Origin: Thermoguttaceae bacterium
GTDB taxonomy: Bacteria; Planctomycetota; Planctomycetia; Pirellulales; Thermoguttaceae
Assembly (NCBI GenBank): GCA_040772845.1
Contig: JAXGXG010000001.1
Location: 1,470,211 to 1,534,210 of the forward strand
DNA: 64,000 bases
Reading direction: 5' to 3'
In this document: one piece after another, positions 6,713 through 52,761 of the stretch
How positions within the stretch are numbered: the stretch's first letter is position 1
How the letters are laid out: the number at the start of each line of letters is the position of its first letter
Translations under genes and position numbers: made by a program
Notes under the pieces: generated by a model
Database searches by the model: none
The model's input: only the letters and a program-made list of their open reading frames with translations
What the model was told of the DNA's origin: nothing

Positions 6713-7119
6713 CGCCAACTCTCTCACAAAAACGAGTGGAAAACTTGCGAAGACCACCAATCAGGATATGCGGACTTTCCTGTGGACGCGACGCCCGGGG
6801 CATCGTCGCCCTCAATCACCTCGATCATGGCCGATCGCAACGTTGCCAGGGTAACAAGACTCGGGAAGGTTGTCAAACGAAGTGGCTGTCCGCATGCCCC
6901 CCTCCCCTTCTGCTGGCATTGTGTTATGCTCAGTCCATTCGGTGGCCGGAAGGCAGGGCGCCCGAGGGGGGGTTGCCGTGGAGAATTCGGCGCCGAAGGG
7001 GGCTTGCCCCGGAACGTGAAACTTTGTACACTACCTCTAGTGTCCGGAATTCGTTCCCGCCTACCCCCGCGAGGTTGATGGTTTCCGCTACCCTCTCCAA
7101 ACCCAGGTCGAGACAAGCA

Positions 7120-8178
7120 ATGGCCAAGAAAAGCACCAAAACCGCCCCCAGCAGTTCCAAGAAGGATCCCGCCCACGCCATCTTCGACGGCCACCCGTCG
7201 CTGCAGAACACCGTGGCCCAAATCGAGAAGCAATATGGCGAAGGGGCCATCATGCCGCTCGGCGCCGAACAGACGGCAAGAATTGCAGGCATTCCGACAG
7301 GCAGCCTGTCGCTCGATATCGCATTGGGCGGGCAGGGCGTTCCGCGAGGCCGGATTATCGAGATCTTCGGCCCCGAATCGAGCGGAAAGACCACGCTGGC
7401 CCTCCACGTGGTTGCCCAGGCGCAGCGCAGCGGCGGTATCGCCGCATTCGTCGATGCAGAACACGCGTTGGACCCGAGTTGGGCGAAGAAACTGGGCGTC
7501 GAGCTGGAGACCTTGCTGGTCAGCCAGCCGGGCTGCGGTGAAGAAGCCATGCACATCACCGAAATGCTCATCCGCAGCAATGCGGTGGACGTGGTCGTGG
7601 TCGATTCGGTAGCCGCCCTCGTGCCCCGCAAGGAACTCGAAGGCGAAATCGGCGACCAGCACGTCGGACTGCAGGCCCGACTGATGAGTCAGTCCATGCG
7701 CAAGCTGACCGGCGCCATTTCAAAGTCGAAAACGACCGTCATCTTCATCAACCAGATCCGTGAGAAGATCGGCGTCATGTTCGGATCGCCGGAAACGACG
7801 CCTGGCGGCCGGGCCCTGAAGTTCTACTGCTCGTGCCGGATCGACGTGCGGCGGATCGGCGCGTTGAAAGACGGCGAGACCGTTGTCGGCCAGCGTGTTC
7901 GCGCGAAGGTGGTCAAGAACAAGGTCGCGCCGCCGTTCCGGGTGGCCGAATTCGACATGATGCACGACAATGGAATCAGCTACGAAGGCGACATCCTTGA
8001 CTTGGCCCAGACCCACAAGATGATCACACGCACCGGCGCCTGGTTCCGTTACGGCGACCAACAGCTTGGCCAAGGACGCGAGAAGACACGCGAATACATG
8101 AAAGAGAATCCCGAGTTCGTTGCCGATTTGCGCGAGAAAATCTTGGTTGCCGAGGGACTCGCCGCACCGGCGTCCTAA
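7120..8178 (+). CDS. recA: Recombinase RecA
   Basis: Walker [54 protein letters not shown], i.e. the full RecA core. Start taken at MAKKSTK (7120); the ORF-track upstream extension from 6679 is Arg-rich junk. Confidence 0.95.
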
Positions 8179-8210
8179 GTCTCGAACGTCCCGTTCCCGG
8201 GAAGACCCCA

Positions 8211-9662
8211 ATGCGTATTCGCCGCATGTTTATTCCGGCCCTCCTCATTGCCGTTCCGTGGGCCGCTTCGGCCCAGGAGGGCGCCGGGCCGGATTTGCTG
8301 GAAACGCTCGAGCGTTCGATGACCGGCGCGATCGAGCAGGCGGAGCGTTCGGTGGTGGCCATTGCACGCGTCCGGAAGGCCCAGCCGGGCGAGACCTTTC
8401 CGCTGGAGTTTCGCCCGGACCCGTTCGGCCGCCGTCTTGCCCCGGCCCCGGCCCCTCAGCCGACCGATCCCGATTTCATCCCCAGCGCCTACGGCACGGG
8501 GGTGGTCGTCGATGCGCGCGGCTTGATCCTCACGGCAAACCACGTGCTTCAGGAGGACAGCGAGTATTACGTGACCACACACGACCGCAAGGTCTACCAG
8601 GCGTGGGTCAAAGGCGCCGACCCCCGAAGTGACCTGGCCATTTTGGCCATCGAAGCCGGCAATCTGCTGCCTATCCGGTTTGGCGACGGCGCCAAGGTGC
8701 GGCGCGGTCAGCTTGTAATCGCCTTAGGGAACCCGTATGCCATTGCCCGCGACGGGCAGTTCAGCGCAAGTTGGGGAATCGTCTCGAATCTCGCCCGCAA
8801 GGCCCCGCCCTCTCCGAATGAGTTCGACTCGTCCGGGCGCGATACGCTGCACCATTTCGGCACGTTGATCCAAACCGACGTCCGGCTGACGCTGGGCGCC
8901 AGTGGGGGCCCTCTTCTCGACCGCCAGGGCCGGATGATCGGGCTGTGTGTCGCCCTGGCCGCCACAACCGGCCACGAAATGGCCGCCGGCTACGCAATTC
9001 CGGTCGACGCCACCTTCCACCGCGTCCTGGCAACCCTCAAAGAAGGACGCGAGGTTGAATATGGATTCCTCGGGGTCCGCCCCACCAACCTACCGCCCCG
9101 CGAAATCCACGCAGGCCGTCATGGAACACGACTGACCGAGGTGGTGCCCGGCACGCCTGCCGATCGCTTCGGACTCCGGGAAGGAGACATTCTGACCGCA
9201 GTCAACGGCAAACCGATCCACGAGGCCGACGGCCTGTACCTCGAGGTGGGCAAACTACCGGTCGAAGCGGTCGCCCACCTGACCATTCTACGCGACGGTC
9301 GCCCGCGGCAGATCGACGTGCAACTGTCGAAATACCCGGTGCGCGGCCGCAAGGTGGTTACGGCGCCGCGTCCGGCGTGGCGAGGCATGCGGGTGGATTA
9401 CCCCACGGCATGGCTCGACGCGGCGCGCCAGTCGTCCCGTCTGCCGGCCTTCGACGAAGGCGTCATCGTGACCGACGTGGAGGAACACTCGCCTGCCTGG
9501 GAGGCCGGACTGCGCCCCGGGGCGCTCGTCAGCCATATCGAAAACACGGCCGTGCGCAATCCGGACCAGTTCCACGCCGCCCTGGCGGGCAAGGCAGGCG
9601 AAGTCGCCCTGCGCCTGCCCGACGACCGCCGGCAGCCGGTTCGCACCGTACCGCCCGAGTAG
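8211..9662 (+). CDS. HtrA/DegP-family periplasmic serine endoprotease (trypsin-like domain + 2 PDZ)
   Basis: Signal peptide, catalytic His (LTANHV), Asp (DLAIL) and Ser (GASGGPL) motifs, then two PDZ-like segments. Confidence 0.85.
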   Translation: MRIRRMFIPALLIAVPWAASAQEGAGPDLLETLERSMTGAIEQAERSVVAIARVRKAQPGETFPLEFRPDPFGRRLAPAPAPQPTDPDFIPSAYGTGVVVDARGLILTANHVLQEDSEYYVTTHDRKVYQAWVKGADPRSDLAILAIEAGNLLPIRFGDGAKVRRGQLVIALGNPYAIARDGQFSASWGIVSNLARKAPPSPNEFDSSGRDTLHHFGTLIQTDVRLTLGASGGPLLDRQGRMIGLCVALAATTGHEMAAGYAIPVDATFHRVLATLKEGREVEYGFLGVRPTNLPPREIHAGRHGTRLTEVVPGTPADRFGLREGDILTAVNGKPIHEADGLYLEVGKLPVEAVAHLTILRDGRPRQIDVQLSKYPVRGRKVVTAPRPAWRGMRVDYPTAWLDAARQSSRLPAFDEGVIVTDVEEHSPAWEAGLRPGALVSHIENTAVRNPDQFHAALAGKAGEVALRLPDDRRQPVRTVPPE

Positions 9663-9669
9663 CGACCGC

Positions 9670-11142
9670 TCAGACCTTCTCGGCCGACGGCACAACGAAC
9701 GGTTCACGGTAGTCGCGAGTCAGCAGCGCATTGGCCTGCGAATTATCGACAAACGTCTCACTCTCCGGATCAATCTCCAACCACGGGCCGAGCACCAGCG
9801 GCGGGAAGATCACGCGGCGCTGTTCCATGTCGAATTCGTTCGCCTTCAAGTGCTCTTGGATTCCGTTGTAGACCGCTACCGGGTCGCCGTTGACCTTGAG
9901 CGACTGCAATCGGCCGGTGATCTCCTCCGGCGAGGCCGGCTGCCCCAGAAGCTGTGAGATATTGGCGACGTGGACCAGCGCCGTCGAGACGTGCCCCTCG
10001 TGAATCGGAGCATTCAGGTCGCTTACCTTCCGGCTGCGCACCGCCTTGATGAAGTTGGCAACGTGGTCTTCGCTCTCTCCGGTAAGCTTCTCGACCACCT
10101 TGCCCTCGAGATCGAATACCGTGTTCGAGCCGAGCGACCCAACCATGTATCCTTCGGTCCCTTCGATCAGCAAGGCGCCGCCCCGCTCGGGGGCAGCCGA
10201 CTTCAGGTTGCGGACCTCCTGCACCACGGTCAGATCCCCAAAGTCGTGGATGGTAACCTGCGTGTTCGGCGTTTCGCCCGCGTCATCGAACTGGCGGGCG
10301 CCGTAGCTTAGCACGCGCCGGCCTAGCCCTTGCAGGCCGAGGATCAGCCGCATGGTATCGACCACGTGGACGCTATTGTTGCCCAGCTCGCCATTGCCGT
10401 AGTCCCAGAGCCAGTGCCAGTCGTAATGGAAATGGGGCCGCCGGACAGGTATCTGCATGGGCGCAGGGCCGGCCCAAAGGTTGTAATCCACCGTGGCCGG
10501 CGGATCGTATTCACCTGCCGGGCCCATATGGTTGCGAGGCCGATACATTCGCAGATGCGCAAGGCTGATCTTGCCGAGTTTGCCCGACCTGATGTACTCG
10601 GCCGCCGCCCGGTTGCTGCCCACGGACCGATACTGCGTTCCGCCCTGGCAGATTCGGTTGTACTTCTCCATGGCCTGGACCATGCGACGACCTTCGCTCA
10701 CGTTGTGGCTGACCGGTTTCTCGACATACACGTCCTTCCCCGCCTGCATGGCCCAAATGGCCGCCAGCGAGTGCCAGTGGTTGGGCGTGGCGACCACAAC
10801 GATGTCTACCGACGGATCGTCGAACACGTCGCGCATGTCGGTAACGCACTTCGGCGCCCGCCCGCCCTGGCGCTGGCCGATCTGTTCCGCCCGTTTCGGG
10901 CCGATGGCCGAATCGGGCTCGCAGACGTACGTAATCTCGCAGTCGTCGCGAGAACCGAACGCGGTCGCGTGCGCGGCGCCGCGGCCCCGTACGCCCAGCA
11001 CGGCAACCGACAGCTTCTCGTTCGGGCTTTTGGATTGCTTCTCCTCCGCCAGAATGCGCGCGGCGGGGGTCGTCGCGGCCAGAGCGGTTGCCGTGGCAAG
11101 CATGGAGTCTTTCAAGAAGCAACGTCGGCTGAAGTGTTTCAT
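9670..11142 (-). CDS. Gfo/Idh/MocA-family oxidoreductase with Tat signal
   Basis: Twin-arginine motif SRRCFLK; Rossmann segment KLSVAVLGVRGRGAAHA; conserved EKP (VYVEKPV) of the Gfo/Idh/MocA family. Confidence 0.8.
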   Translation of the reverse strand: MKHFSRRCFLKDSMLATATALAATTPAARILAEEKQSKSPNEKLSVAVLGVRGRGAAHATAFGSRDDCEITYVCEPDSAIGPKRAEQIGQRQGGRAPKCVTDMRDVFDDPSVDIVVVATPNHWHSLAAIWAMQAGKDVYVEKPVSHNVSEGRRMVQAMEKYNRICQGGTQYRSVGSNRAAAEYIRSGKLGKISLAHLRMYRPRNHMGPAGEYDPPATVDYNLWAGPAPMQIPVRRPHFHYDWHWLWDYGNGELGNNSVHVVDTMRLILGLQGLGRRVLSYGARQFDDAGETPNTQVTIHDFGDLTVVQEVRNLKSAAPERGGALLIEGTEGYMVGSLGSNTVFDLEGKVVEKLTGESEDHVANFIKAVRSRKVSDLNAPIHEGHVSTALVHVANISQLLGQPASPEEITGRLQSLKVNGDPVAVYNGIQEHLKANEFDMEQRRVIFPPLVLGPWLEIDPESETFVDNSQANALLTRDYREPFVVPSAEKV

Positions 11143-11245
11143 TGCAGGTCTCCTCGGCAGGTTAGGCGGCTGCAGGCCGCGGTGGGATAGCAGGGTTCAG
11201 TTGGACATTCGCTCCGGGGGCACTGGTGGGTTGCTTCGTTCGCGT

Positions 11246-11524
11246 CTACCTTGCGACCGGAAAGGGTTTGCGGACGCTCGCGCCGGATCGTTCCAGCAAC
11301 GCTCGGAAGGCTGGATTGAACTCGATCAAGTCACTGACCTGGGACGCATCGTCGTCCCAGGCATCCAGCGGCTGGATCGCCACGAAGCGATGATCGGGCA
11401 GTTCCACAACCAGAGCCTGCCCAGAATCACGACACTTCGCCAGCAGTTCCGGAGTCTGCATCTGGCGCTGACTCAGGGGGATGACCTCGGTGTCCATGGA
11501 ACCAATGGTAACATGGAACGCCAT
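11246..11524 (-). CDS. Small Phd/YefM-like (antitoxin-fold) protein, paralog of the adjacent ORF; real start probably internal (MQTPELL..)
   Basis: ..TPELLAKCRDSGQALVVELPDHRFVAIQPLD..SDLIEFNPAFRALLERS aligns with the neighbouring ORF. No toxin partner visible. Confidence 0.4.
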   Translation of the reverse strand: MAFHVTIGSMDTEVIPLSQRQMQTPELLAKCRDSGQALVVELPDHRFVAIQPLDAWDDDASQVSDLIEFNPAFRALLERSGASVRKPFPVAR

Positions 11525-11695
11525 TGTTTGCAGTCCCTGTTGCCCCCAAAATGTCTGCCAGCCGCAGCGAGACCCGCCCCCAACGCCCGCCGTCGCACCC
11601 TCACGCGAGAGATCCCCAGCCCGGCGTCGGAGGTCCGGCTGAATATCACGAAGCTCGCGCGAACCATCTGCATGCGTTCGGCAGGTTGCGAGTTG

Positions 11696-11947
11696 TCAGC
11701 CAAAGCGGCGCCGCATTTCCTCGGCGGACACGCTGCCTTCCTCTTGCACACGGAAGCGAGAACGCTCGATCAAATCTAAGAATCGACGATTTGTGCTATG
11801 CGAAACCGTTTCCAGATCGGCGTTCTCGATAGGAACCAATGCCGCAACGGAGTGCCCTTGGTCTGCCACGATGACTGGACCTGCCTGGATCTCCGAAGCA
11901 TAGTCAGCTAAGGACCGAGTTGCCTCTCGTTTGTCAACCGCTTTCAT
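11696..11947 (-). CDS. Phd/YefM-like type II antitoxin-family small protein
   Basis: 83 aa: MKAVDKREATRSLADYASEIQAGPVIVADQGHSVAALVPIE.. resembles prevent-host-death antitoxins. No cognate toxin ORF adjacent. Confidence 0.45.
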   Translation of the reverse strand: MKAVDKREATRSLADYASEIQAGPVIVADQGHSVAALVPIENADLETVSHSTNRRFLDLIERSRFRVQEEGSVSAEEMRRRFG

Positions 11948-12167
11948 AGCTCGGCCTCCTCGCCACCTATCATAACACGGCCGCGCTCCTCTTCTGTCGA
12001 ACTTGTATTTATCCCGCAGGCGTGCGGCCGTGCTTATTCTTCAGACCCGCCGGTTCGGTGGAACAAGAACCCCCGGGCCAACGGCAATTCTGCCCCGTAA
12101 CCCGTTGCCGGTCAAGACCCTGCCGTCGCTTTGCGATTTCGCTCTTCGCGCCTAATCTGGTCCGCCT

Positions 12168-12690
12168 ATGCGGGCAAAGAAACCCAAGCGACTGCCCGCC
12201 GTCTTCTCGCCCGAAGAGGCCATTGCCGTTCTCGGCCGACTTCAGAGCGTGCGGTGGCTGATGGGCGTTTAGAAGTCAGGATCAGATAGAAGTCAGCACA
12301 GAAGTCAGAACCTCGTTGAACCGAAGATGCCCCGCAGGCTGTCGCGAGGGTGGATTTCTGCGATAACTGGAACCTCATTGAACCGGAGCCACAGAGTGGC
12401 GCGAGGAGATGCGACGGGTGCAAGCGCAAGCCGCCTGGCGCGTTCTCCTTGGAGCAGACTCGCCGCCTGTTATACTATGGTAGCTCTGGAATGGCGATGT
12501 GGAGAGGTTTGCCCACAGGACGATCAACCGCCTTGGTAGCTCCGCATAGCAGTCGGCCCCCCCGCTTGACCGCAAGCGATCCACGAGAATCGTTTGACTG
12601 TTCATCGGTACGCGAGATATTCATGCCCGTCAACCTTGATAAGCCACAGTTATGGAAGCAAGACACTCGGCATTCTGTAGATTTTTATAG
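12168..12690 (+). pseudogene. Degraded tyrosine recombinase (phage/integron integrase-like) remnant, split across two frames
   Basis: Frame 1: MRAKKPKRLPAVFSPEEAIAVLGRLQS, resembling the integrase [21 protein letters not shown] segment, then a stop. Frame 2 from about 12440: GAFSLEQTRRLLYYGSSGMAMWRGL, resembling [21 protein letters not shown]. The N-terminal and catalytic domains are absent. Confidence 0.3.
12271..12308. repeat. Three direct copies of AGAAGTCAG (spacings 17 and 12 nt) inside the integrase remnant
   Basis: tAGAAGTCAGgatcagatAGAAGTCAGcacAGAAGTCAGaacc read directly. Nearby imperfect repeat cRttgaaccgRag x2. Confidence 0.4.
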
Positions 12691-12693
12691 CTG

Positions 12694-14241
12694 ATGGCCT
12701 CGGTTCTCGATACAGAAATGAACCGACTTGTGGAACAAGTTCGGTTGGATTCGCTGAAGACGGCAGAGGAACGGAACAAGTGGGGACAGTTTGCCACGCC
12801 TCCGAGCCTGTCCGCAGACATCGCCAAATATGCCTGGGGTCGTCTGCGCGGCCGCAAGGGAGGCCTTCGTTTCATCGATCCGGCAATTGGTACGGGTTCT
12901 TTTTTCTCCGCCGTTCGCAGCATTTTCCCCACGGGGCGACTCTCACATGCTGCCGGAATCGAGTTGGACCCGGAGTTTGTAAGGGCCACGAGAGCTTTAT
13001 GGGAATCCTACGGGTTAGAGGTAACCGAGGGAGACTTCACTCAGCAGATTCCACCTGCAACAAAGTACGACCTGCTGATCGCTAACCCGCCTTACGTACG
13101 ACATCACCATTTGAACAGCGCGGACAAGACAAGGCTCAATGCCCTGCTTGCAGAACGCCTTGGCATGTCGATAAGCGGCCTGGCGGGACTCTACTGTTAT
13201 TTCCTCTTGTTGGCAGATTCGTGGCTTGCCGAGAAGGCTTTGTCGGTCTGGTTGATTCCATCGGAATTCATGGACGTGAACTACGGTAACACGGTGAAGC
13301 ACTATCTGCTTGACAATGTAACACTGTTGCATATTCACCGATTCTGCCCTTCGGATGTGCAGTTCGTCGATGCCCTTGTATCATCCGCAGTTGTCGTTTT
13401 CGAGAAGACGCCGCCGAAGCAGGGGCACGCAGTGGAGTTCACGTTTGGAGGATCGCTTAATCAACCCGAACTGACGGAACTTGTTGACCTCGGCACACTG
13501 CGTGGCGCGAGGAAATGGACCGCTTTCCCCGCGAGCAACTTGGCCGAACGCCGGACCCCCTCGATTACCTTAGGCGACCTGTTCGATGTCAAGCGCGGCT
13601 TGGCCACCGGGAACAATGCGTTTTTTGTATTGCCTCTTGAACGCGCGAAGGCATTGGGCATCCCTTCACAGTACCTGCGTCCCATTGTGCCGAGCCCGCG
13701 ATACATGAGGGAGTCCGTGATCGAAGGCGACGAGGAGGGACATGTGCGACTCGACCGTCAACTTGCCCTGATTGACTGCCCGCTTGGCGAGGACACCGTT
13801 CGAGTGAAGTACCCCGAGTTCTGGAGTTATCTTGAACAGGGAAAAGCAGAGGGCGTACACAAGGGCTACCTGGCAAGCCGGCGGGTTCCATGGTACTCGC
13901 AGGAGAAGCGGGAACCCGCCCCGTTCTTGTGTACATATATGGGGCGTTCCAAAGAACGGCCGTTCCGTTTCATCCGGAATAAATCGCGCGCCGTGGCGGC
14001 AAATGTCTATTTGCTGCTGTATCCGAAGGGGGCGTTAAAGTGTGCTCTCGAAGACAACCCCGAATTGTACGAAGCCTTATTTGCCACGCTCCGTGACATT
14101 ACGCCAGAAGATTTCATCCATGAAGGGCGAATCTACGGGGGTGGATTACGCAAGATGGAGCCCGCCGAACTGAAACGCTTGCCCGCAGACCATATCGCCA
14201 AAACACTTGGGCTGGTCGTACAGCGAACGTTTGAGTTCTAG
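12694..14241 (+). CDS. Gamma-class N6-adenine DNA methyltransferase (Eco57I/TaqI-like MTase domain + C-terminal target-recognition region), orphan
   Basis: Motif I FIDPAIGTGSFF and motif IV LIANPPYV (NPPY); 515 aa. No restriction endonuclease ORF alongside. Visibly lower GC than the flanks. Confidence 0.8.
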   Translation: MASVLDTEMNRLVEQVRLDSLKTAEERNKWGQFATPPSLSADIAKYAWGRLRGRKGGLRFIDPAIGTGSFFSAVRSIFPTGRLSHAAGIELDPEFVRATRALWESYGLEVTEGDFTQQIPPATKYDLLIANPPYVRHHHLNSADKTRLNALLAERLGMSISGLAGLYCYFLLLADSWLAEKALSVWLIPSEFMDVNYGNTVKHYLLDNVTLLHIHRFCPSDVQFVDALVSSAVVVFEKTPPKQGHAVEFTFGGSLNQPELTELVDLGTLRGARKWTAFPASNLAERRTPSITLGDLFDVKRGLATGNNAFFVLPLERAKALGIPSQYLRPIVPSPRYMRESVIEGDEEGHVRLDRQLALIDCPLGEDTVRVKYPEFWSYLEQGKAEGVHKGYLASRRVPWYSQEKREPAPFLCTYMGRSKERPFRFIRNKSRAVAANVYLLLYPKGALKCALEDNPELYEALFATLRDITPEDFIHEGRIYGGGLRKMEPAELKRLPADHIAKTLGLVVQRTFEF

Positions 14242-14369
14242 GCGCTCGTACCGCTTGCCCTTCCAGCCGGCGGGCCTCGTCCTTCGCAACTGCTTGTCGC
14301 AAACGGCCGCCTTCGCGTGCAGCCGAGAAGGGCATCCTCGCCGGCGCCCCATGACACTTGCGCGAACGC

Positions 14370-14936
14370 CTATCTTCGCCCTGCGGCGCGGAGGAGTTCG
14401 TCGCTCCAGACGGCTTCGGGCGGCGCAAGGGGCGGGATGGGCTCTGCGCGATAATCGATGGTATCGTAACGCCCGTTGCGATAGCACGTTGCGACCAGGG
14501 GTTGAAGGTCCAGCTTCAGCTCCTCATCGGTCGGGCGAAGCGGCACGGGGATCGCCGGAAGCGCCCTGGATAAACGCATCGCATGAACCGCCACGCAGTC
14601 GGGCTTCCATCCCCGATAGATGCACGCCTGGTACGCCGCGCGGTACCGGGGCGGGATCATGCCTGGCCGGGCGACCGTCACCCGCTGGCCGGAACGGGTC
14701 AGATCGACCTCGACCAAGCTTGCCCCGGCCGCCATGACTTCCCGCTGTTTGCGGAGGTAGAGGTCCTGGCCGGCGCCCGGAACCTTATTGGCAGGGCTGA
14801 GGAACTCGATGACGGTAACCACACGGTTGCCGGAACCTACATCGACGATTTCGAGGTAGCCTTGCGTGATCGGCTCGTGGCGAAGAGAAAGAACGACTCT
14901 CAGAAGCTGTTCTGATCGACAACTTCGCCACCGTCA
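14370..14936 (-). pseudogene. 5'-truncated DUF4058-family (restriction-endonuclease-like fold) gene remnant
   Basis: ORF 14370..14822 starts at GTG with VTVIEFLSPANKVPGAGQDLYLRKQREVMAAGASLVEVDLTRSG and ends ..IPVPLRPTDEELKLDLQPLVATCYRNGRYDTIDY. The same frame stays open to 14936 (..HEPITQGYLEIVDVGSGNR) without any start codon and runs into the 3' end of the DUF1559 gene. About 100 N-terminal residues expected for the family are missing. Confidence 0.55.
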
Positions 14937-15907
14937 CGCGAACCTAACCAAAGATGGGTTTCCGAATCGATGGTGAAGCTGATCGCGCGAACCGAGCCGT
15001 CGCACAATGCCATGTTGAAAACGCCACTGTGCGTACTGCCGAACGTGTAGGCGCCCAGCACGCCGGCTCGATCCTGCAACGGAACCCAGTACGTGCTCCG
15101 CAATACGTCCTGATCGTGGCCCACGTACATGGCCTGGTCGTCGTTACTGGCGCTGCCGGTCTCATAATGGTCGGGGATCAGATACTTCTCGCCCACCATG
15201 TACGTGTTGGTCAGACCGTCGCTGATCATGGCCGTCGTAACCTTGCTTCGCCGGTAGACGACCCCGTTGTACTTGTTGCCGCTCTGGTAACTGTCGATCC
15301 ATTGCTGCTCGCTCAGACTGTCGCCGGCATCGTAGGATCCCGGGCTGCCCCCTCCCCAGTAGCCCACGCTGCCCATATTCGCCGCGTAGTCGCTGCGTCC
15401 GGCAACCGAGGCCGAAACACTCAGCCGGTAGGCCGTCTTGTTCGGATACGCCACCGAGTCGCGCCGGCTCGGACAGTTCTGAAACGAAAGCGACGTCTCC
15501 ACGCACTGGGCCAATTCGGCCGCCTTCTGGGTACCTGAAAGCCCCTTGCCAAACGCCCCGAGTGTCTGCTGCTCGACAAAGGGAAGGATATTGTAGGCCC
15601 ACCCGCCCGGCTGCTGTTTGTCAAAGCCGCGGTCGGGATCTCCTACCCACTGACACCCCCAGCCGCCGGTCGGGAAATGGCGATGGGCACTCTCGTGATT
15701 CAAAAACGCCAGCCCGATCTGCTTCAAATGGTTCTGACACTGCATTCGCCGCGCCGCCTCACGCGCCGACTGGACCGCCGGCAGCAGCAAAGCAATCAAA
15801 ATGCCGATGATCGCAATCACGACAAGAAGCTCAATAAGCGTAAAACCTCTGTTCACGCCTCGAATCGCAGATTTCCAATGGGGCATCATTGCAACCTCCC
15901 CTAACAA
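14900..15907 (-). CDS. DUF1559 protein with prepilin-type N-terminal methylation domain (second paralog)
   Basis: [57 protein letters not shown]..; C-terminal CDGSVR motif shared with the 4625..5689 copy. Confidence 0.8.
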
Positions 15908-16137
15908 GTAGAAGTCTCAACTACACACAATACTGGCCCCCCGTCAGAACCGCAATAGCCAACCAATCGCCTGCCCGACAAAGGTCACCAACAATAGACC
16001 GGACAACGGCACGGTGTGCAACCGATAATCGATAGACCCCGTACAACCTGCAACCCACCCACTTCCCAGGCAGGGCCCTTGCCGGTATCCTCGATAGATT
16101 CGACTTCCCCGTGCCCTTTCCGCGATATGCGTTGACT

Positions 16138-18768
16138 ATGAGAACCGACGAACTCCGCGAAGCGTATCTTGCCTTCTTTGAAAGCAAAGGCTGTGTCCGC
16201 CGACCGAGCGATGTGCTTGTCCCCCGCTGGGACCCTTCCGTCCTGTTCACCCCGGCCGGAATGAACCAGTTCAAAGACCACTTTATGGGCCGGACGAAGC
16301 TCGAGTTCACGCGAGCCACCACCTGCCAAAAATGCCTGCGAACCGGCGACATCGACAATGTGGGCCGTACGGCGTACCACCATACGTTTTTCGAGATGCT
16401 GGGCAATTTCAGCTTTGGCGACTATTTCAAACGGGAAGCGATCCTGTGGGCGTGGGAGTTCTGTACGGATAAGCGATGGCTCGGCCTGGATCCGGCGCGG
16501 CTTTCGGCCACCGTCTACCTGGACGACGACGAGGCGGCCGACATCTGGCTGAAGGAGGTGAAGCTCCCTCCGGAGAAGTTGGAGCGTCTGGACGAAGACG
16601 AGAACTTCTGGCCGGCCAACGCGCCCAGCCAGGGGCCGGATGGCGTTTGCGGTCCGTGCAGCGAAATCTACTATCACACCGACCGCGGCTCCGTGGAGAT
16701 ATGGAACCTGGTATTCACCCAGTTCAACCGTGTGGGTGACCCGCCGGATAATCTCCGTCCGTTGCCCAGCCGGAATATCGATACGGGCATGGGGCTGGAA
16801 CGAACGGCGGCGGTGTTGCAGGGAGTGGAGACGAACTTCCACATTGACATTTTGCGTCCGCTGGTGGAAGCGGCGGCCGAGGTATGCGGCGTTACCTACA
16901 ATCCGGCCGACGAAACCGGCCGGCGGGTCCGCCGGATTGCCGACCACGTGCGTGCGTGCTCCTTCGCCATCCACGAAAACGTCTATCCGGGGCCGAACAA
17001 GGAGAAGTACGTTATCAAGCGTCTGCTGCGCCGGGCCGTTTTGGACGGCCGGCAGATGGGCGTCGGCGAGCCGTTCCTGTACAAGCTGGTCGGCAAGGTG
17101 GCGGAACTGATGGAGACGTCCTATCCGGAACTCGGGCAGACGGTCGAGCGGGTGGCCAACGTCATCCAGCAGGAGGAATCGAACTTCCTGGGAACGATTG
17201 ATGGCGGCCTGGAACGGATCGGGCGCATTTTCGACCAGATGAAGCGAGACGGGCACGGCACGGTGGCCGGTACCGATGCCGCCGAGATGTACACCACATA
17301 TGGTTTCCCGCCCGAATTGTTCGAGACTCTCGCGGCCGAACACAACCTGACGTTCGACTGGCCCGGCTACCAGAAGGAAATGGCGCTCCACGGCGAGCTA
17401 TCCGGAACAGGTGAAAAGACTGTTTTTAAGCACGACCCGCTCGAAGCCATCAAGAAAATGCGGCACGGCAGCCAATTTCTGGGCTACGAGACCACCAAGG
17501 TCGAAGACGCCGAGATTCTGGCGATCGTGGCAGGCGGGCAACTTTGCGACCAGGCGGACGAGATCGACTCGGCCCAGCCGATCACGGTTGTGCTGGACCA
17601 GACCCCCTTTTACGGCGAGATGGGCGGCCAGGTGGGCGATACGGGTGAAATCGTCGGCCCCGGATTCCGGTTCGAGGTCGTCACAACGCAGGTGGACGGC
17701 GCATTCACGCTGCATTGCGGCCACCTTCGAGAGGGGGCGATTCGCCTGGGCGAGAAGGTCTCCGCCCAAATCGACGCCTCCCGGCGTCAAGGAATCCGCC
17801 GGGCGCACTCGGCAACCCACCTCCTGCACAGCGCGCTACGGAAGGTGCTGGGCGACCATGCAGAACAACAGGGCTCGAAGGTCGACGACGACTGGCTTCG
17901 GTTCGATTTCACCAATCCGCAGGCGGTCAAATCGGACGAACTGGTCGAAATCGAGCGCGACGCCAATGCCCGCATCCTCGAGAGCGCGGCGGTCGTTGCG
18001 AAGGATATGCCGTTGATCGAGGCCCGGAAGACGGGCGCCACGATGCTCTTCGGCGAGAAGTACCCTGATGTCGTCCGCGTCATCTCGATGGGCGACTTCA
18101 GCAAGGAGTTGTGTGGCGGCACCCACCTGGACAATACGGCCCAGGTAGGCCTGCTGAAGATTGTTTCGGAAGAGAGCGTCGCATCCGGCACACGGCGGAT
18201 TGTCGCGCTGACCGGACGGAAAGCGATGGAACACATCCGTTCGCACGAGCAGGCATTGCACCAGGCGGCGGTGGCGCTGCGGACCTCGCCCGAGGAACTT
18301 CCCAGCCGCGTCGAGGCAATGGCCCACGAGATCCGCGACCTGCGGAAGAAACTGAGCCAGGCAGCCCCCCAGCAGGAAGGCCCCTCGATCGATGACCTGA
18401 AAGACGGTTCGACCGAAGTGCTCGGCGTACGGGTCGTTGCAACGGAAATACCGGGTGCGCGCCCGGACGCGATGCGTCACCTGATCGACCAACTCCGCCG
18501 GAAGGCAGCGCCGGTTGCGGTGCTGCTCGCGTCATGCGAGGAGGAGAAGGTTACATTGATCGCCGGGGCGAGCCGCGACATAGTGGAACAAGGATTCGAC
18601 TGCGTTGCGTGGATCCGAGCCGTGGCGAAGCGGGTTGGTGGCGGGGGGGGTGGCCGCCCCGACATGGCCCAGGCGGGCGGCAAGAAGCCCGGGGCACTTC
18701 CGCAGGCGCTCCAGGCCGCTTCGGAAGAAGCCGAAAGCCTCCTGAAGAAAACGCCGAAACAATCGTGA
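16138..18768 (+). CDS. alaS: Alanine--tRNA ligase
   Basis: MRTDELREAYLAFFESKG.., FTPAGMNQFK, class II catalytic core, editing-domain HSATHLLH, C-terminal DHHA1-like region; 876 aa. Confidence 0.95.
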   Translation: MRTDELREAYLAFFESKGCVRRPSDVLVPRWDPSVLFTPAGMNQFKDHFMGRTKLEFTRATTCQKCLRTGDIDNVGRTAYHHTFFEMLGNFSFGDYFKREAILWAWEFCTDKRWLGLDPARLSATVYLDDDEAADIWLKEVKLPPEKLERLDEDENFWPANAPSQGPDGVCGPCSEIYYHTDRGSVEIWNLVFTQFNRVGDPPDNLRPLPSRNIDTGMGLERTAAVLQGVETNFHIDILRPLVEAAAEVCGVTYNPADETGRRVRRIADHVRACSFAIHENVYPGPNKEKYVIKRLLRRAVLDGRQMGVGEPFLYKLVGKVAELMETSYPELGQTVERVANVIQQEESNFLGTIDGGLERIGRIFDQMKRDGHGTVAGTDAAEMYTTYGFPPELFETLAAEHNLTFDWPGYQKEMALHGELSGTGEKTVFKHDPLEAIKKMRHGSQFLGYETTKVEDAEILAIVAGGQLCDQADEIDSAQPITVVLDQTPFYGEMGGQVGDTGEIVGPGFRFEVVTTQVDGAFTLHCGHLREGAIRLGEKVSAQIDASRRQGIRRAHSATHLLHSALRKVLGDHAEQQGSKVDDDWLRFDFTNPQAVKSDELVEIERDANARILESAAVVAKDMPLIEARKTGATMLFGEKYPDVVRVISMGDFSKELCGGTHLDNTAQVGLLKIVSEESVASGTRRIVALTGRKAMEHIRSHEQALHQAAVALRTSPEELPSRVEAMAHEIRDLRKKLSQAAPQQEGPSIDDLKDGSTEVLGVRVVATEIPGARPDAMRHLIDQLRRKAAPVAVLLASCEEEKVTLIAGASRDIVEQGFDCVAWIRAVAKRVGGGGGGRPDMAQAGGKKPGALPQALQAASEEAESLLKKTPKQS

Positions 18769-52687: not shown

Positions 52688-52761
52688 GGGCGATTAGCTC
52701 AGTTGGCTAGAGCACCTCGTTTACACCGAGGGGGTCGGCGGTTCGAGCCCGTCATCGCCCA
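52688..52761 (+). tRNA. tRNA-Val (anticodon TAC), no encoded CCA
   Basis: GGGCGAT/ATCGCCC acceptor stem, D arm GCTC..GAGC, anticodon arm CCTCG-TTTACAC-CGAGG, T arm GGCGG-TTCGAGC-CCGTC, discriminator A followed by CTT. Confidence 0.85.

What the first reader, a model, noticed from the sequence alone, without database searches (positions are those of the whole stretch)
11246..14936. Degraded mobile/defence islet: integrase remnant, 9-mer direct repeats, orphan N6-adenine methyltransferase, truncated DUF4058 gene, two antitoxin-like ORFs
Between a housekeeping-type oxidoreductase and a DUF1559 gene lies a ~3.7-kb stretch with visibly lower GC. It holds (i) two tandem paralogous Phd/YefM-like small ORFs with no toxin, (ii) a tyrosine-recombinase fragment in two frames with three AGAAGTCAG direct repeats inserted (possible arm-type sites), (iii) an intact gamma-class NPPY methyltransferase with no nuclease partner, and (iv) a DUF4058 gene (a family I recall as having a restriction-endonuclease-like PD-(D/E)xK fold) lacking its 5' ~100 codons. 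This reads as a decayed integrative element that carried an R-M-like or other defence module. The MTase may now be an orphan, or its partner nuclease is unrecognised or lost.
Basis: partly seen in the sequence, partly recalled or inferred. Interest (0 to 1): 0.6.

Follow-up and report, generated by a model that had tools for sequence, protein, structure and literature searches.

The report
Methylase orphaned by recent nuclease deletion
This stretch of a planctomycete chromosome holds the wreck of two "poison and antidote" gene pairs (a restriction-modification system and a toxin-antitoxin pair): short-repeat deletions removed both poison genes and left both antidote genes intact, which is a clean example of an expected and already known kind of gene decay.

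Summary
The MTase (12694-14241) belongs to a widespread Type II R-M family. In that family an XamI-family nuclease sits directly upstream in 50 of 60 surveyed loci. Here only nuclease codons 1-22 survive (12624-12692).

A same-species metagenome contig (L176, 98-99% identical, same gene order) carries the intact 317-aa nuclease. Against it, the window lacks 881 nt between two TTATA repeats.

ORF2 (11696-11947) is a conserved 83-aa Phd/YefM antitoxin whose ParE-type toxin normally lies directly upstream. The window keeps only the last ~14 toxin codons, after a 261-nt deletion between two CGCTCCT repeats. The toxin is already a pseudogene in L176. ORF1 is a distant Phd-like relative.

The recombinase remnant is real but covers only 34 codons of an integron-type integrase. 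The proposed second-frame fragment is not supported. DUF4058 lacks its first ~96 profile positions and is not the MTase's partner.

No att sites, attC sites or intact element were found. The whole 6.4 kb between a protease gene and alaS is inserted relative to 20 relatives. This is ordinary decay of addiction modules, unusually well documented. Interest is low to moderate.

The parts
9663..16110 (.). Variable block inserted between the conserved PDZ-protease gene (8211-9662) and alaS (16111-18768). It contains the oxidoreductase, the islet and the DUF1559 gene.
   Evidence: In 20 Pirellulales/Thermoguttaceae relatives the protease homolog ends 54-733 nt upstream of alaS on the same strand. In the window the gap is 6448 nt. 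The block is present with the same gene order only in same-species contig L176.
11246..11497 (-). ORF1: intact 83-aa Phd/YefM-like small protein. It is antitoxin-like and has no Pfam match. An in-frame ATG at 11524 would give 92 aa.
   Evidence: 196 homologs of ~83 aa. The family profile aligns to the ORF2 family (hhalign E = 1.9e-5). The AF2 model has beta-alpha-beta-beta-alpha-alpha topology at pLDDT 72, and its top 19 PDB fold hits are YefM/Phd/RelB antitoxins, though each is individually weak (E 0.03-1). Elsewhere homologs sit just downstream of a ParE_toxin gene. The window differs from L176 by 5 synonymous and 5 non-synonymous changes.
11696..11947 (-). ORF2: intact 83-aa Phd/YefM-family antitoxin, now without its toxin.
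   Evidence: 246 homologs, nearly all exactly 83 aa and 63-94% identical. Many carry PF02604 or are named antitoxin or prevent-host-death by their source. The window protein's own Pfam score is 16.3 bits, below the cut-off. In L088 and L089 a ~98-aa ParE_toxin gene lies directly upstream with a 4-nt overlap.
11944..11990 (-). 3' remnant (~14 codons, ..ERGRVMIGGEEAEL*) of the ParE-type toxin gene. Its stop codon overlaps the ORF2 start.
   Evidence: DNA homology with L088 and L089 runs past the ORF2 start to 11981-11990. The translation matches the toxin C-termini ..DRSRIIIGGEEVDL* and ..DRNRVLIGGVEVKL*.
11984..11990 (.). Junction of deletion 1: CGCTCCT, a single copy here. In L176 two copies flank 261 nt that hold the rest of the toxin pseudogene.
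   Evidence: blastn of window against L176 and the junction sequences. The L176 toxin has an in-frame stop (WEL to W*L) and a frameshift.
12015..12167 (+). Non-coding block of unknown nature that precedes the integrase remnant. The same arrangement is shared with another planctomycete metagenome contig.
   Evidence: 86% DNA identity to L095 positions 1-164. L095 begins at its contig end, so 12015 is not a true boundary. No Rfam match and no stable fold. A Logan assembly contig of the same strain breaks at 12095.
12168..12269 (+). Integron-type tyrosine-integrase remnant of 34 codons (MRAKKPKRLPAVFSPEEAIAVLGRLQSVRWLMGV). It corresponds to about residues 77-110 of full-length relatives, the linker between the SAM-like and catalytic domains.
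   Evidence: phmmer against 1.84 billion proteins gave 17 hits, the best at E = 2.6e-9 and 82% identity. Nine of the ten hits scanned carry PF13495 and/or PF00589. The best NCBIfam match for hit P0242 is TIGR02249, integron integrase, at 1.9e-60. Homology to L095 and to all hits stops at 12268/12269.
12271..12308 (+). Three direct AGAAGTCAG repeats, spaced 17 and 12 nt apart, starting exactly where integrase homology ends.
   Evidence: They are identical in L176 and absent from all other fetched loci. Function not established.
12308..12388 (+). Pair of 19-mers, GAACCTCGTTGAACCGAAG and GAACCTCATTGAACCGGAG, 62 nt apart. Each contains GAACC-N5-GAACC.
   Evidence: family D5. Identical in L176. Not found in viral contigs. 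Function not established.
12624..12694 (+). Stub of the XamI-family restriction endonuclease gene: codons 1-22 (MPVNLDKPQLWKQDTRHSVDFY), then Ser and TGA. The TGA overlaps the MTase ATG (TGATG).
   Evidence: tblastn with intact REases gives 80-88% identity over 25 residues at E = 3e-10, and there is no other match in the 64 kb. The intact 317-aa genes are in L005, L002 and L176.
12685..12689 (.). Junction of deletion 2: TTATA. The 881 nt present in L176 (REase codons 23-317) are missing here.
   Evidence: blastn of window against L176 shows a 5-nt overlap of the two flanking alignments, and the junction sequences agree. The junction is also present in an independent Logan assembly contig, L001, which is 100% identical.
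12694..14241 (+). Intact Type II gamma-class N6-adenine DNA methyltransferase (Eco57I-like catalytic domain plus M_Eco57I_C), now solitary.
   Evidence: Against L176 there are 12 nt differences, 8 synonymous and 4 non-synonymous. It has the lowest GC in the window.
14370..14915 (-). DUF4058 gene remnant lacking about the first 96 profile positions. The truncation point abuts the stop codon of the DUF1559 gene (14900-14902).
   Evidence: Pfam PF13267 at 1.5e-43, profile positions 97-253 of 254. The same 150-aa remnant is in L176, with 5 nt differences.

Best explanation
The islet is the remains of two addiction-type modules plus unrelated gene fragments. It sits in a variable 6.4-kb block inserted between a protease gene and alaS.

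The first module is a Type II restriction-modification pair ordered R then M: an XamI-family PD-(D/E)XK endonuclease followed, 3-4 nt later, by an Eco57I-like gamma N6-adenine methyltransferase. The second module is a toxin-first ParE/Phd-YefM toxin-antitoxin pair. A second Phd-like gene (ORF1) lies next to it.

In this strain both 'poison' genes have been removed by deletions between short direct repeats: 881 nt between TTATA repeats took out endonuclease codons 23-317, and 261 nt between CGCTCCT repeats took out the toxin, which was already a pseudogene. Both 'antidote' genes remain full-length.

Inferred, not shown: the methyltransferase is still made. It would use the old endonuclease promoter and start codon, with the 23-codon stub ending in TGATG and so coupled to the MTase start. 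It would keep methylating its unknown target as a solitary enzyme.

The order of loss, poison first, is what addiction logic predicts: losing the antidote first is lethal.

The integron-type integrase remnant, the 9-mer cluster and the DUF4058 truncation are older lesions shared with the sister genome. They are not demonstrably part of one element.
For: Shown:
- In the MTase's family an XamI REase lies directly upstream. Of 60 metagenome loci with at least 1 kb of upstream sequence, 50 have an intact REase, 9 a decayed one and 1 none. L002, L005 and L007 show the same arrangement.
- Plasmid homologs are annotated as XamI family restriction endonuclease next to an N-6 or Eco57I-type methylase.
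- The REase stub is at 12624-12692.
- Sister contig L176 is 98.4-99.0% identical over 6895-11990 and 12685-18343, with identical gene order and an intact 317-aa REase. The window lacks exactly 881 nt and 261 nt at microhomology junctions.
- The junction-bearing sequence is reproduced in an independent assembly.
- The toxin identity is ParE_toxin, at 24.3-24.5 bits against a cut-off of 23.
- The toxin-first order with a 4-nt overlap is seen in L088-L091.
- The toxin remnant is shown.
- The MTase retains all family-invariant residues and differs from L176 by 8 synonymous and 4 non-synonymous changes.
- The R-M unit is foreign by composition and by lack of synteny.

From the literature: addiction behaviour of Type II R-M systems and the asymmetry between solitary MTases and solitary REases are described in PMC4176335 and PMC12707154.
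Against: - No expression or methylation data exist, so MTase activity and target are unknown.
- The promoter-like site found (12594-12621) is a weak consensus match placed too close to the ATG to be convincing.
- The direction of the two indels is inferred by parsimony from one sister contig plus the family-wide arrangement.
- L176 is a metagenome contig.
- Whether an REase or toxin copy exists elsewhere in the 7.5-Mb genome could not be checked. None is present in the 64 kb.
- ORF1 has no recognisable toxin remnant upstream, so its history is unclear.
Confidence: 0.85

Rival explanations
1. The whole 3.7 kb is one decayed integrative element. Its own tyrosine integrase brought in the R-M module, the antitoxins and DUF4058 as cargo, and the AGAAGTCAG repeats are arm-type integrase binding sites.
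For: - A genuine integrase remnant lies between the TA genes and the R-M pair.
- GC is low.
- The block is absent from relatives.
- The repeats are non-random.
Against: - Only 34 codons of the integrase survive.
- The same 5'-truncated pseudogene, with the same upstream block, occurs in another organism's contig, so it was already dead when it was shared.
- No flanking att-like direct repeats were found.
- R-M homology to other genomes begins at the REase ATG. The R-M pair sits in three other genomic contexts without any integrase.
- The DUF4058 remnant and ORF1 have native-like GC3 (0.73-0.74), unlike the MTase and ORF2. This argues for several acquisitions.
- The 9-mers start where integrase homology ends rather than flanking a core site.
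Confidence: 0.12
2. The remnant integron-type integrase and the divergently oriented TA genes are what is left of a chromosomal integron whose cassettes included the toxin-antitoxin genes.
For: - Relatives of the remnant score best against the integron-integrase model TIGR02249.
- The TA genes read away from the integrase, as cassettes do.
- From my own knowledge, not tested here: ParE/Phd cassettes are common in chromosomal integrons.
Against: - No RYYYAAC...GTTRRRY core pairs occur anywhere in 9600-16200.
- The spacers after ORF2 and ORF1 fold no better than shuffled sequence, with z = -0.65 and -0.03.
- The integrase 5' end, and with it any attI, is missing.
Confidence: 0.05
3. The MTase is a long-domesticated, lineage-specific orphan with a regulatory role. 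Its lack of a nuclease is its normal state.
For: - The MTase is intact and shows more synonymous than non-synonymous change.
- Conserved solitary MTases are common (PMC12707154).
Against: - A sister genome 98-99% identical still has the nuclease at the same place.
- 50 of 60 family loci are paired with a REase.
- The gene is compositionally foreign.
- It is absent from the alaS neighbourhood of 80 relatives.
Confidence: 0.05
4. DUF4058 is the MTase's unrecognised nuclease partner.
For: - It lies adjacent, 128 nt from the MTase stop, in convergent orientation.
Against: - The true partner is identified.
- DUF4058 is truncated identically in the sister genome that has a working R-M pair.
- It is not next to the R-M pair in the three other loci examined, L002, L005 and L007.
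- No PADLOC hit.
- No sequence match to any solved nuclease.
Confidence: 0.02

Closest known systems
Type II R-M systems of the XamI REase (Pfam PF09572, PD-(D/E)XK) / Eco57I-like gamma N6-adenine MTase family
   Same: - The MTase is a full-length, highly conserved member: 55-81% identical to thousands of ~512-aa proteins, and PADLOC MTase_II at 9.8e-146.
- The gene order (R then M), the 3-4-nt R/M spacing and the REase N-terminus are preserved up to the deletion point.
   Different: - The REase is reduced to 22 codons, so this is no longer a restriction system.
- The recognition sequence is unknown. XamI itself is listed as GTCGAC from my memory of the Pfam/REBASE entry, not tested here.
- GTCGAC counts in the window are unremarkable: 18 against 28.6 +/- 5.5 expected.
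Solitary (orphan) DNA methyltransferases arising by in-situ loss of the REase
   Same: The MTase is retained and the nuclease lost, the direction expected from addiction logic and discussed in PMC4176335.
   Different: - That pan-genome study found this route to be the minority. Only 9-13% of pan-genome families contained both complete and solitary forms.
- Here the before and after states are both seen at 98-99% identity, with the exact 881-nt deletion and its TTATA microhomology.
ParE/RelE toxin with Phd/YefM antitoxin (type II TA), toxin-first gene order
   Same: - ORF2 is an 83-aa Phd/YefM-family protein.
- In other genomes its partner is a ~98-aa ParE_toxin protein encoded directly upstream with a 4-nt overlap.
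   Different: - Here the toxin is gone except for ~14 codons, and in the sister genome it is a pseudogene.
- ORF2 is therefore an orphan antitoxin.
- All four differences between the two strains' ORF2 are non-synonymous.
Integron integrases (NCBIfam TIGR02249)
   Same: The 34-codon remnant is 62-82% identical to the domain-linker region of proteins whose best model is integron integrase.
   Different: There is no SAM-like domain, no catalytic domain, no attI and no attC. It is a fossil, not a recombinase.
DUF4058 (PF13267)
   Same: Strong match to the C-terminal 60% of the family profile.
   Different: - The N-terminal ~96 profile positions are missing.
- No function is known for the family, and no paper in the searched library mentions it.

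Membership tests
Gamma-class N6-adenine DNA MTase (Eco57I-like, Type II) | SAM-binding motif I (D/E-x-G-x-G) and catalytic motif IV NPPY in gamma order, plus a C-terminal target-recognition domain | tested here: met
   DPAIGTGSF at residues 62-70 and NPPY at 131-134. Pfam Eco57I at 5.3e-12. M_Eco57I_C is precomputed for the identical protein. All 130+ invariant columns of alignment A1 are kept.
Complete Type II R-M system (XamI family) | An intact cognate restriction endonuclease gene adjacent to the MTase | tested here: not met
   Only REase codons 1-22 remain at 12624-12692. An intact 317-aa REase is present at the same site in sister contig L176.
Complete Type II R-M system (XamI family) | Site-specific methylation and cleavage of a defined sequence | not testable with these tools
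   No methylome, REBASE or biochemical data are available here.
Solitary (orphan) MTase | No cognate REase anywhere in the genome | tested here: inconclusive
   No other REase match in the 64-kb window. The remaining ~7.45 Mb of the genome could not be searched.
Phd/YefM antitoxin (PF02604) | Significant match to the family profile, and a beta-alpha-beta-beta-alpha N-terminal fold | tested here: inconclusive
   ORF2's own score is 16.3 bits, below the 29.8 cut-off, but dozens of its 63-94% identical homologs carry PF02604. ORF1 has no Pfam hit. The ORF1 profile aligns to the ORF2 family at E = 1.9e-5. The ORF1 model has the expected topology, and its top fold hits are YefM/Phd at E 0.03-1.
Type II toxin-antitoxin module (ParE/Phd) | An intact toxin gene adjacent to the antitoxin | tested here: not met
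   Only a ~14-codon 3' remnant is left. No ParE match elsewhere in the window. No toxin remnant is recognisable upstream of ORF1.
Tyrosine recombinase / integron integrase | Catalytic domain with the R-H-R-Y residues and an N-terminal SAM-like domain | tested here: not met
   Only 34 linker codons are homologous. Nothing aligns before 12168 or after 12269.
Integron | attC sites (R''/R' cores with a hairpin) after cassettes, and an attI site | tested here: not met
   No core pairs in 9600-16200. Spacer folds have z = -0.65 and -0.03. No covariance-model attC search was possible.
Integrative element / genomic island | Flanking direct repeats (attL/attR), often at a tRNA gene | tested here: not met
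   No flanking repeats beyond short chance matches. The only tRNA gene is at 52688.
DUF4058 (PF13267) | Full-length match to the 254-position profile | tested here: not met
   The match covers positions 97-253 only, at 149.5 bits.
DUF4058 as a PD-(D/E)XK nuclease | Restriction-endonuclease-like fold with catalytic D...(D/E)xK | not tested
   A sequence search of the PDB gave only chance hits. No structure prediction was run on the truncated protein.

The most novel reading that the evidence does not exclude
The retained antidotes are not just leftovers. After both poisons were removed, the solitary MTase and the orphan antitoxins are kept because they act as anti-addiction or immunity genes. 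They would neutralise incoming plasmids or phages that carry the same widespread XamI-type R-M or ParE toxins. Alternatively, the MTase is on its way to a regulatory role. The unusually diverged 65-nt patch just upstream of the old nuclease start codon would then reflect promoter rewiring after the nuclease was lost.
Probability: 0.12. Interest if true: 0.5.

Novelty: new member of a known kind. Interest (0 to 1): 0.3.

Why it matters
It gives a rare before-and-after pair for a well-known idea. Two genomes 98-99% identical differ by clean, repeat-mediated deletions of exactly the 'poison' halves of an R-M system and a TA pair, while both 'antidote' halves survive. A large pan-genome study concluded that solitary MTases seldom come from in-situ decay (PMC4176335), so documented cases with the junctions resolved are useful calibration points. 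The pair of strains would also be a natural system for asking what a freshly orphaned MTase does. For annotation, it shows that the MTase should be called a solitary remnant of an XamI-type system, and that DUF4058 is not its partner. No new mechanism is implied.

Tried and rejected
1. Second integrase fragment in another frame (12311-12480). There are no Pfam or PDB hits, and no integrase homolog aligns there. Rejected.
2. Integron reading. No attC core pairs and no stable hairpins. Rejected as untestable further here.
3. RNA genes in the islet. Rfam gave nothing at E <= 1.
4. tRNA integration target. No tRNA gene lies nearby.
5. Paralogy of ORF1 and ORF2 by BLASTP. Nothing was found. It is visible only at profile level.
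6. Toxin remnant upstream of ORF1. Only chance-level matches.
7. GTCGAC avoidance as a trace of XamI-like specificity. The result was 18 against 28.6 +/- 5.5 expected, which is not informative, and the specificity is unknown anyway.
8. DUF4058 against solved structures. Chance hits only. PADLOC gave nothing. No papers mention the family.
9. Origin of 12270-12623 and of the repeats. There is no homolog in 186 loci or in viral contigs. Left unexplained.
10. Phage carriage of the R-M family. Only 4 distant viral contigs.
11. The gene call in L002 suggested a 115-aa REase fragment. Translation shows it is intact at 317 aa, so L002 is not a case of decay.
12. The window's own genome was not among the GTDB representatives. 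The best alaS match was 86%. The sister contig L176 was found only through the ORF1 homolog look-up.

Full report
**What is there**

The window is from a planctomycete. The alaS protein is 83-86% identical to those of the closest relatives retrieved, four Planctomycetales/Planctomycetaceae/Thermoguttaceae MAGs, and 62-72% to those of the other Pirellulales, Thermoguttaceae and related MAGs. The exact MTase sequence is on record in a 7.5-Mb NCBI contig.

The region lies between a Gfo/Idh/MocA oxidoreductase gene (9670-11142, minus strand) and a DUF1559 gene (14900-15907, minus strand). Reading left to right, it contains:
- ORF1 (11246-11497, minus)
- ORF2 (11696-11947, minus)
- a short toxin-gene tail (11944-11990, minus)
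- a non-coding block (12015-12167)
- a 34-codon integrase remnant (12168-12269, plus)
- three AGAAGTCAG repeats (12271-12308)
- a 19-mer pair (12308-12388)
- a 23-codon restriction-endonuclease stub (12624-12694, plus)
- an intact 515-aa MTase (12694-14241, plus)
- a 5'-truncated DUF4058 gene (14370-~14915, minus)

**Checking the observation**

- The MTase is a gamma-class N6-adenine enzyme. It matches Pfam Eco57I and N6_Mtase and PADLOC MTase_II at 9.8e-146, and it has NPPY and the SAM motif.
- The DUF4058 match covers profile positions 97-253 of 254.
- The 9-mer occurs three times. These are the only copies in 64 kb, against 0.26 expected.
- The MTase is the GC minimum of the whole window: 0.55 against 0.611 +/- 0.019. 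Its GC3 is 0.63, against 0.70-0.80 for neighbouring genes. ORF2 has GC3 0.56.

**The missing nuclease**

The MTase has thousands of homologs of ~512 aa at 55-81% identity. In three contexts looked up, an XamI-family restriction endonuclease gene (PF09572) lies immediately upstream. It is intact in L005 and L002 and frameshifted in L007.

I surveyed 80 metagenome loci. Of the 60 with at least 1 kb of upstream sequence, 50 had a full-length REase, 9 a decayed one and 1 none. Plasmid homologs are annotated 'XamI family restriction endonuclease' next to an N-6 or Eco57I-type methylase.

In the window, tblastn with the intact REases finds only residues 1-25, at 12623-12697 (E = 3e-10), and nothing else in 64 kb. 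The stub reads MPVNLDKPQLWKQDTRHSVDFYS and then stops, and its TGA overlaps the MTase ATG.

**The missing toxin**

ORF2 has 246 homologs, almost all exactly 83 aa. Many carry PF02604 or are named antitoxin by their source. In L088-L091 a ~98-aa gene overlaps its start by 4 nt from upstream. That gene passes the Pfam ParE_toxin threshold.

In the window, DNA homology to those loci continues only 35-43 nt beyond the ORF2 start. The translation ..ERGRVMIGGEEAEL* matches the toxin C-termini.

ORF1 belongs to a separate 83-aa family with no Pfam domain.
- BLASTP against ORF2 finds nothing.
- The two family profiles align at E = 1.9e-5.
- An AF2 model has the Phd/YefM beta-alpha-beta-beta-alpha topology. 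Its top 19 PDB matches are YefM/Phd/RelB antitoxins, though each is weak individually.
- Elsewhere ORF1 homologs also follow a ParE_toxin gene.
- No toxin remnant is recognisable upstream of ORF1 here.

**The sister genome**

The closest ORF1 homolog (94%) led to a 616-kb metagenome contig, L176. It has the same gene order: alaS, DUF1559, DUF4058 (150 aa), MTase, an intact 317-aa XamI REase, ORF1, oxidoreductase, protease and recA.

blastn gives 98.4% identity over window 6895-11990, 95.2% over 11984-12689 and 99.0% over 12685-18343. L176 has two extra segments:
- 261 nt flanked by two CGCTCCT copies. This is the body of the ParE gene, which in L176 already carries an in-frame stop and a frameshift.
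- 881 nt flanked by TTATA. This is REase codons 23-317.

The junction sequences are shown. The window's junction-bearing sequence is reproduced 100% in an independent Logan contig.

Deletion in the window's lineage is the parsimonious direction, because the paired state is the family norm. The integrase remnant, the 9-mers, the 19-mers and the DUF4058 truncation are identical or nearly so in L176. They are therefore older than the two deletions.

**State of the survivors**

The MTase differs from the L176 copy at 12 nt, 8 synonymous and 4 non-synonymous. That is compatible with continued constraint, but the numbers are too small to prove it. ORF2 differs at 4 nt, all non-synonymous, and some fall at positions that are invariant or nearly invariant in the family. 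This hints at relaxed constraint on the orphan antitoxin.

**The integrase remnant**

A phmmer search of 1.84 billion proteins with the 38-aa translation gave 17 hits, the best at E = 2.6e-9. Nine of the ten hits scanned carry Phage_int_SAM_4 and/or Phage_integrase. The best NCBIfam model for one of them is integron integrase.

Homology is confined to 12168-12269.

A 1.3-kb metagenome contig (L095) shares 86-92% DNA identity with 12015-12268. It includes the non-integrase block upstream, and it continues into the catalytic domain where the window switches to the 9-mers. No attC cores, hairpins, Rfam families or flanking repeats were found.

**Context**

In 20 relatives the PDZ-protease homolog ends 54-733 nt upstream of alaS. 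In the window the two genes are 6448 nt apart.

None of the 80 alaS loci has the MTase, ORF1 or ORF2 nearby. The closest MAG (alaS 86%, with downstream fab genes in the same order) carries the intact R-M pair on another contig in a different neighbourhood.

**Interpretation**

Two addiction-type modules have each lost the poison and kept the antidote. The Type II R-M literature predicts this asymmetry, since loss of the MTase first is lethal (PMC4176335, PMC12707154). The same study reports that in-situ decay is a minority source of solitary MTases. This makes the locus a well-resolved example rather than a new phenomenon.

Expression of the MTase from the old R promoter through the coupled stub is inferred, not shown. 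The one promoter-like match is weak.

**Verdict**

The finding is a new member of a known kind, and interest is about 0.3.

Three things remain unexplained:
- the 354-nt segment 12270-12623 with its repeat arrays
- the diverged patch 12540-12605
- the history of ORF1

Noticed in passing
window 8211-9662 and 16111-18768 (and L016, L020, L021, L037-L068 etc.): A trypsin-like/PDZ protease gene and alaS are direct neighbours (54-733 nt apart, same strand) in 20 Pirellulales/Thermoguttaceae genomes. In this genome 6.4 kb has been inserted between them. In L022, L034 and L054 the protease homolog lies 2.4-6.4 kb from alaS, and in L022 and L054 it is inverted, so this intergenic spot may be a recurrent insertion or rearrangement site.
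   Followed up: partly
window 12540-12605: A ~65-nt patch 20-85 nt upstream of the old REase start codon is only ~70% identical to sister contig L176, while the surrounding kilobases are 99-100% identical. It contains two TTGAC(C/T) boxes. It could be a recombination patch or promoter turnover.
   Followed up: no
window 12270-12623: 354 nt with no homolog in any fetched locus outside the species. It holds 3x AGAAGTCAG and two copies of GAACCTCRTTGAACCGRAG, each of which is GAACC-N5-GAACC. This looks like a binding-site array or local duplications at an old junction.
   Followed up: partly
window 12095 (start of L001): An independent Logan assembly contig of the same strain ends at window position 12095, inside the block shared with L095. 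This would fit that block being repeated elsewhere in the genome.
   Followed up: no
window 11696-11947 versus L176 7551-7802: The orphan antitoxin ORF2 differs from its sister-genome copy at four positions, all non-synonymous (K6R, A9V, S33P, L57F). Two of them, A9 and L57, are invariant in the family alignment and one, position 33, is nearly invariant (consensus Pro).
   Followed up: partly
L095 1-700; proteins P0241-P0257: Many of the closest relatives of the integrase remnant are themselves truncated or run out of frame after ~150 residues. This suggests a family of integron-type integrase pseudogenes spread among planctomycete genomes.
   Followed up: no
L088 2342-3252: In one metagenome contig the ORF1-type gene, a ParE toxin gene and the ORF2-type antitoxin gene lie in that order as a trio. 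That differs from the ORF2-then-ORF1 order in the window. The two Phd-like families seem to travel together in variable arrangements.
   Followed up: partly
L007 7046-7997; L115, L145, L147, L107, L149, L160, L161, L169, L175: About one in six loci of this R-M family shows REase decay (frameshifts, a stop codon, or 5' truncations that keep the C-terminus) beside an intact MTase. The window's decay differs in keeping only the N-terminal 22 codons.
   Followed up: partly
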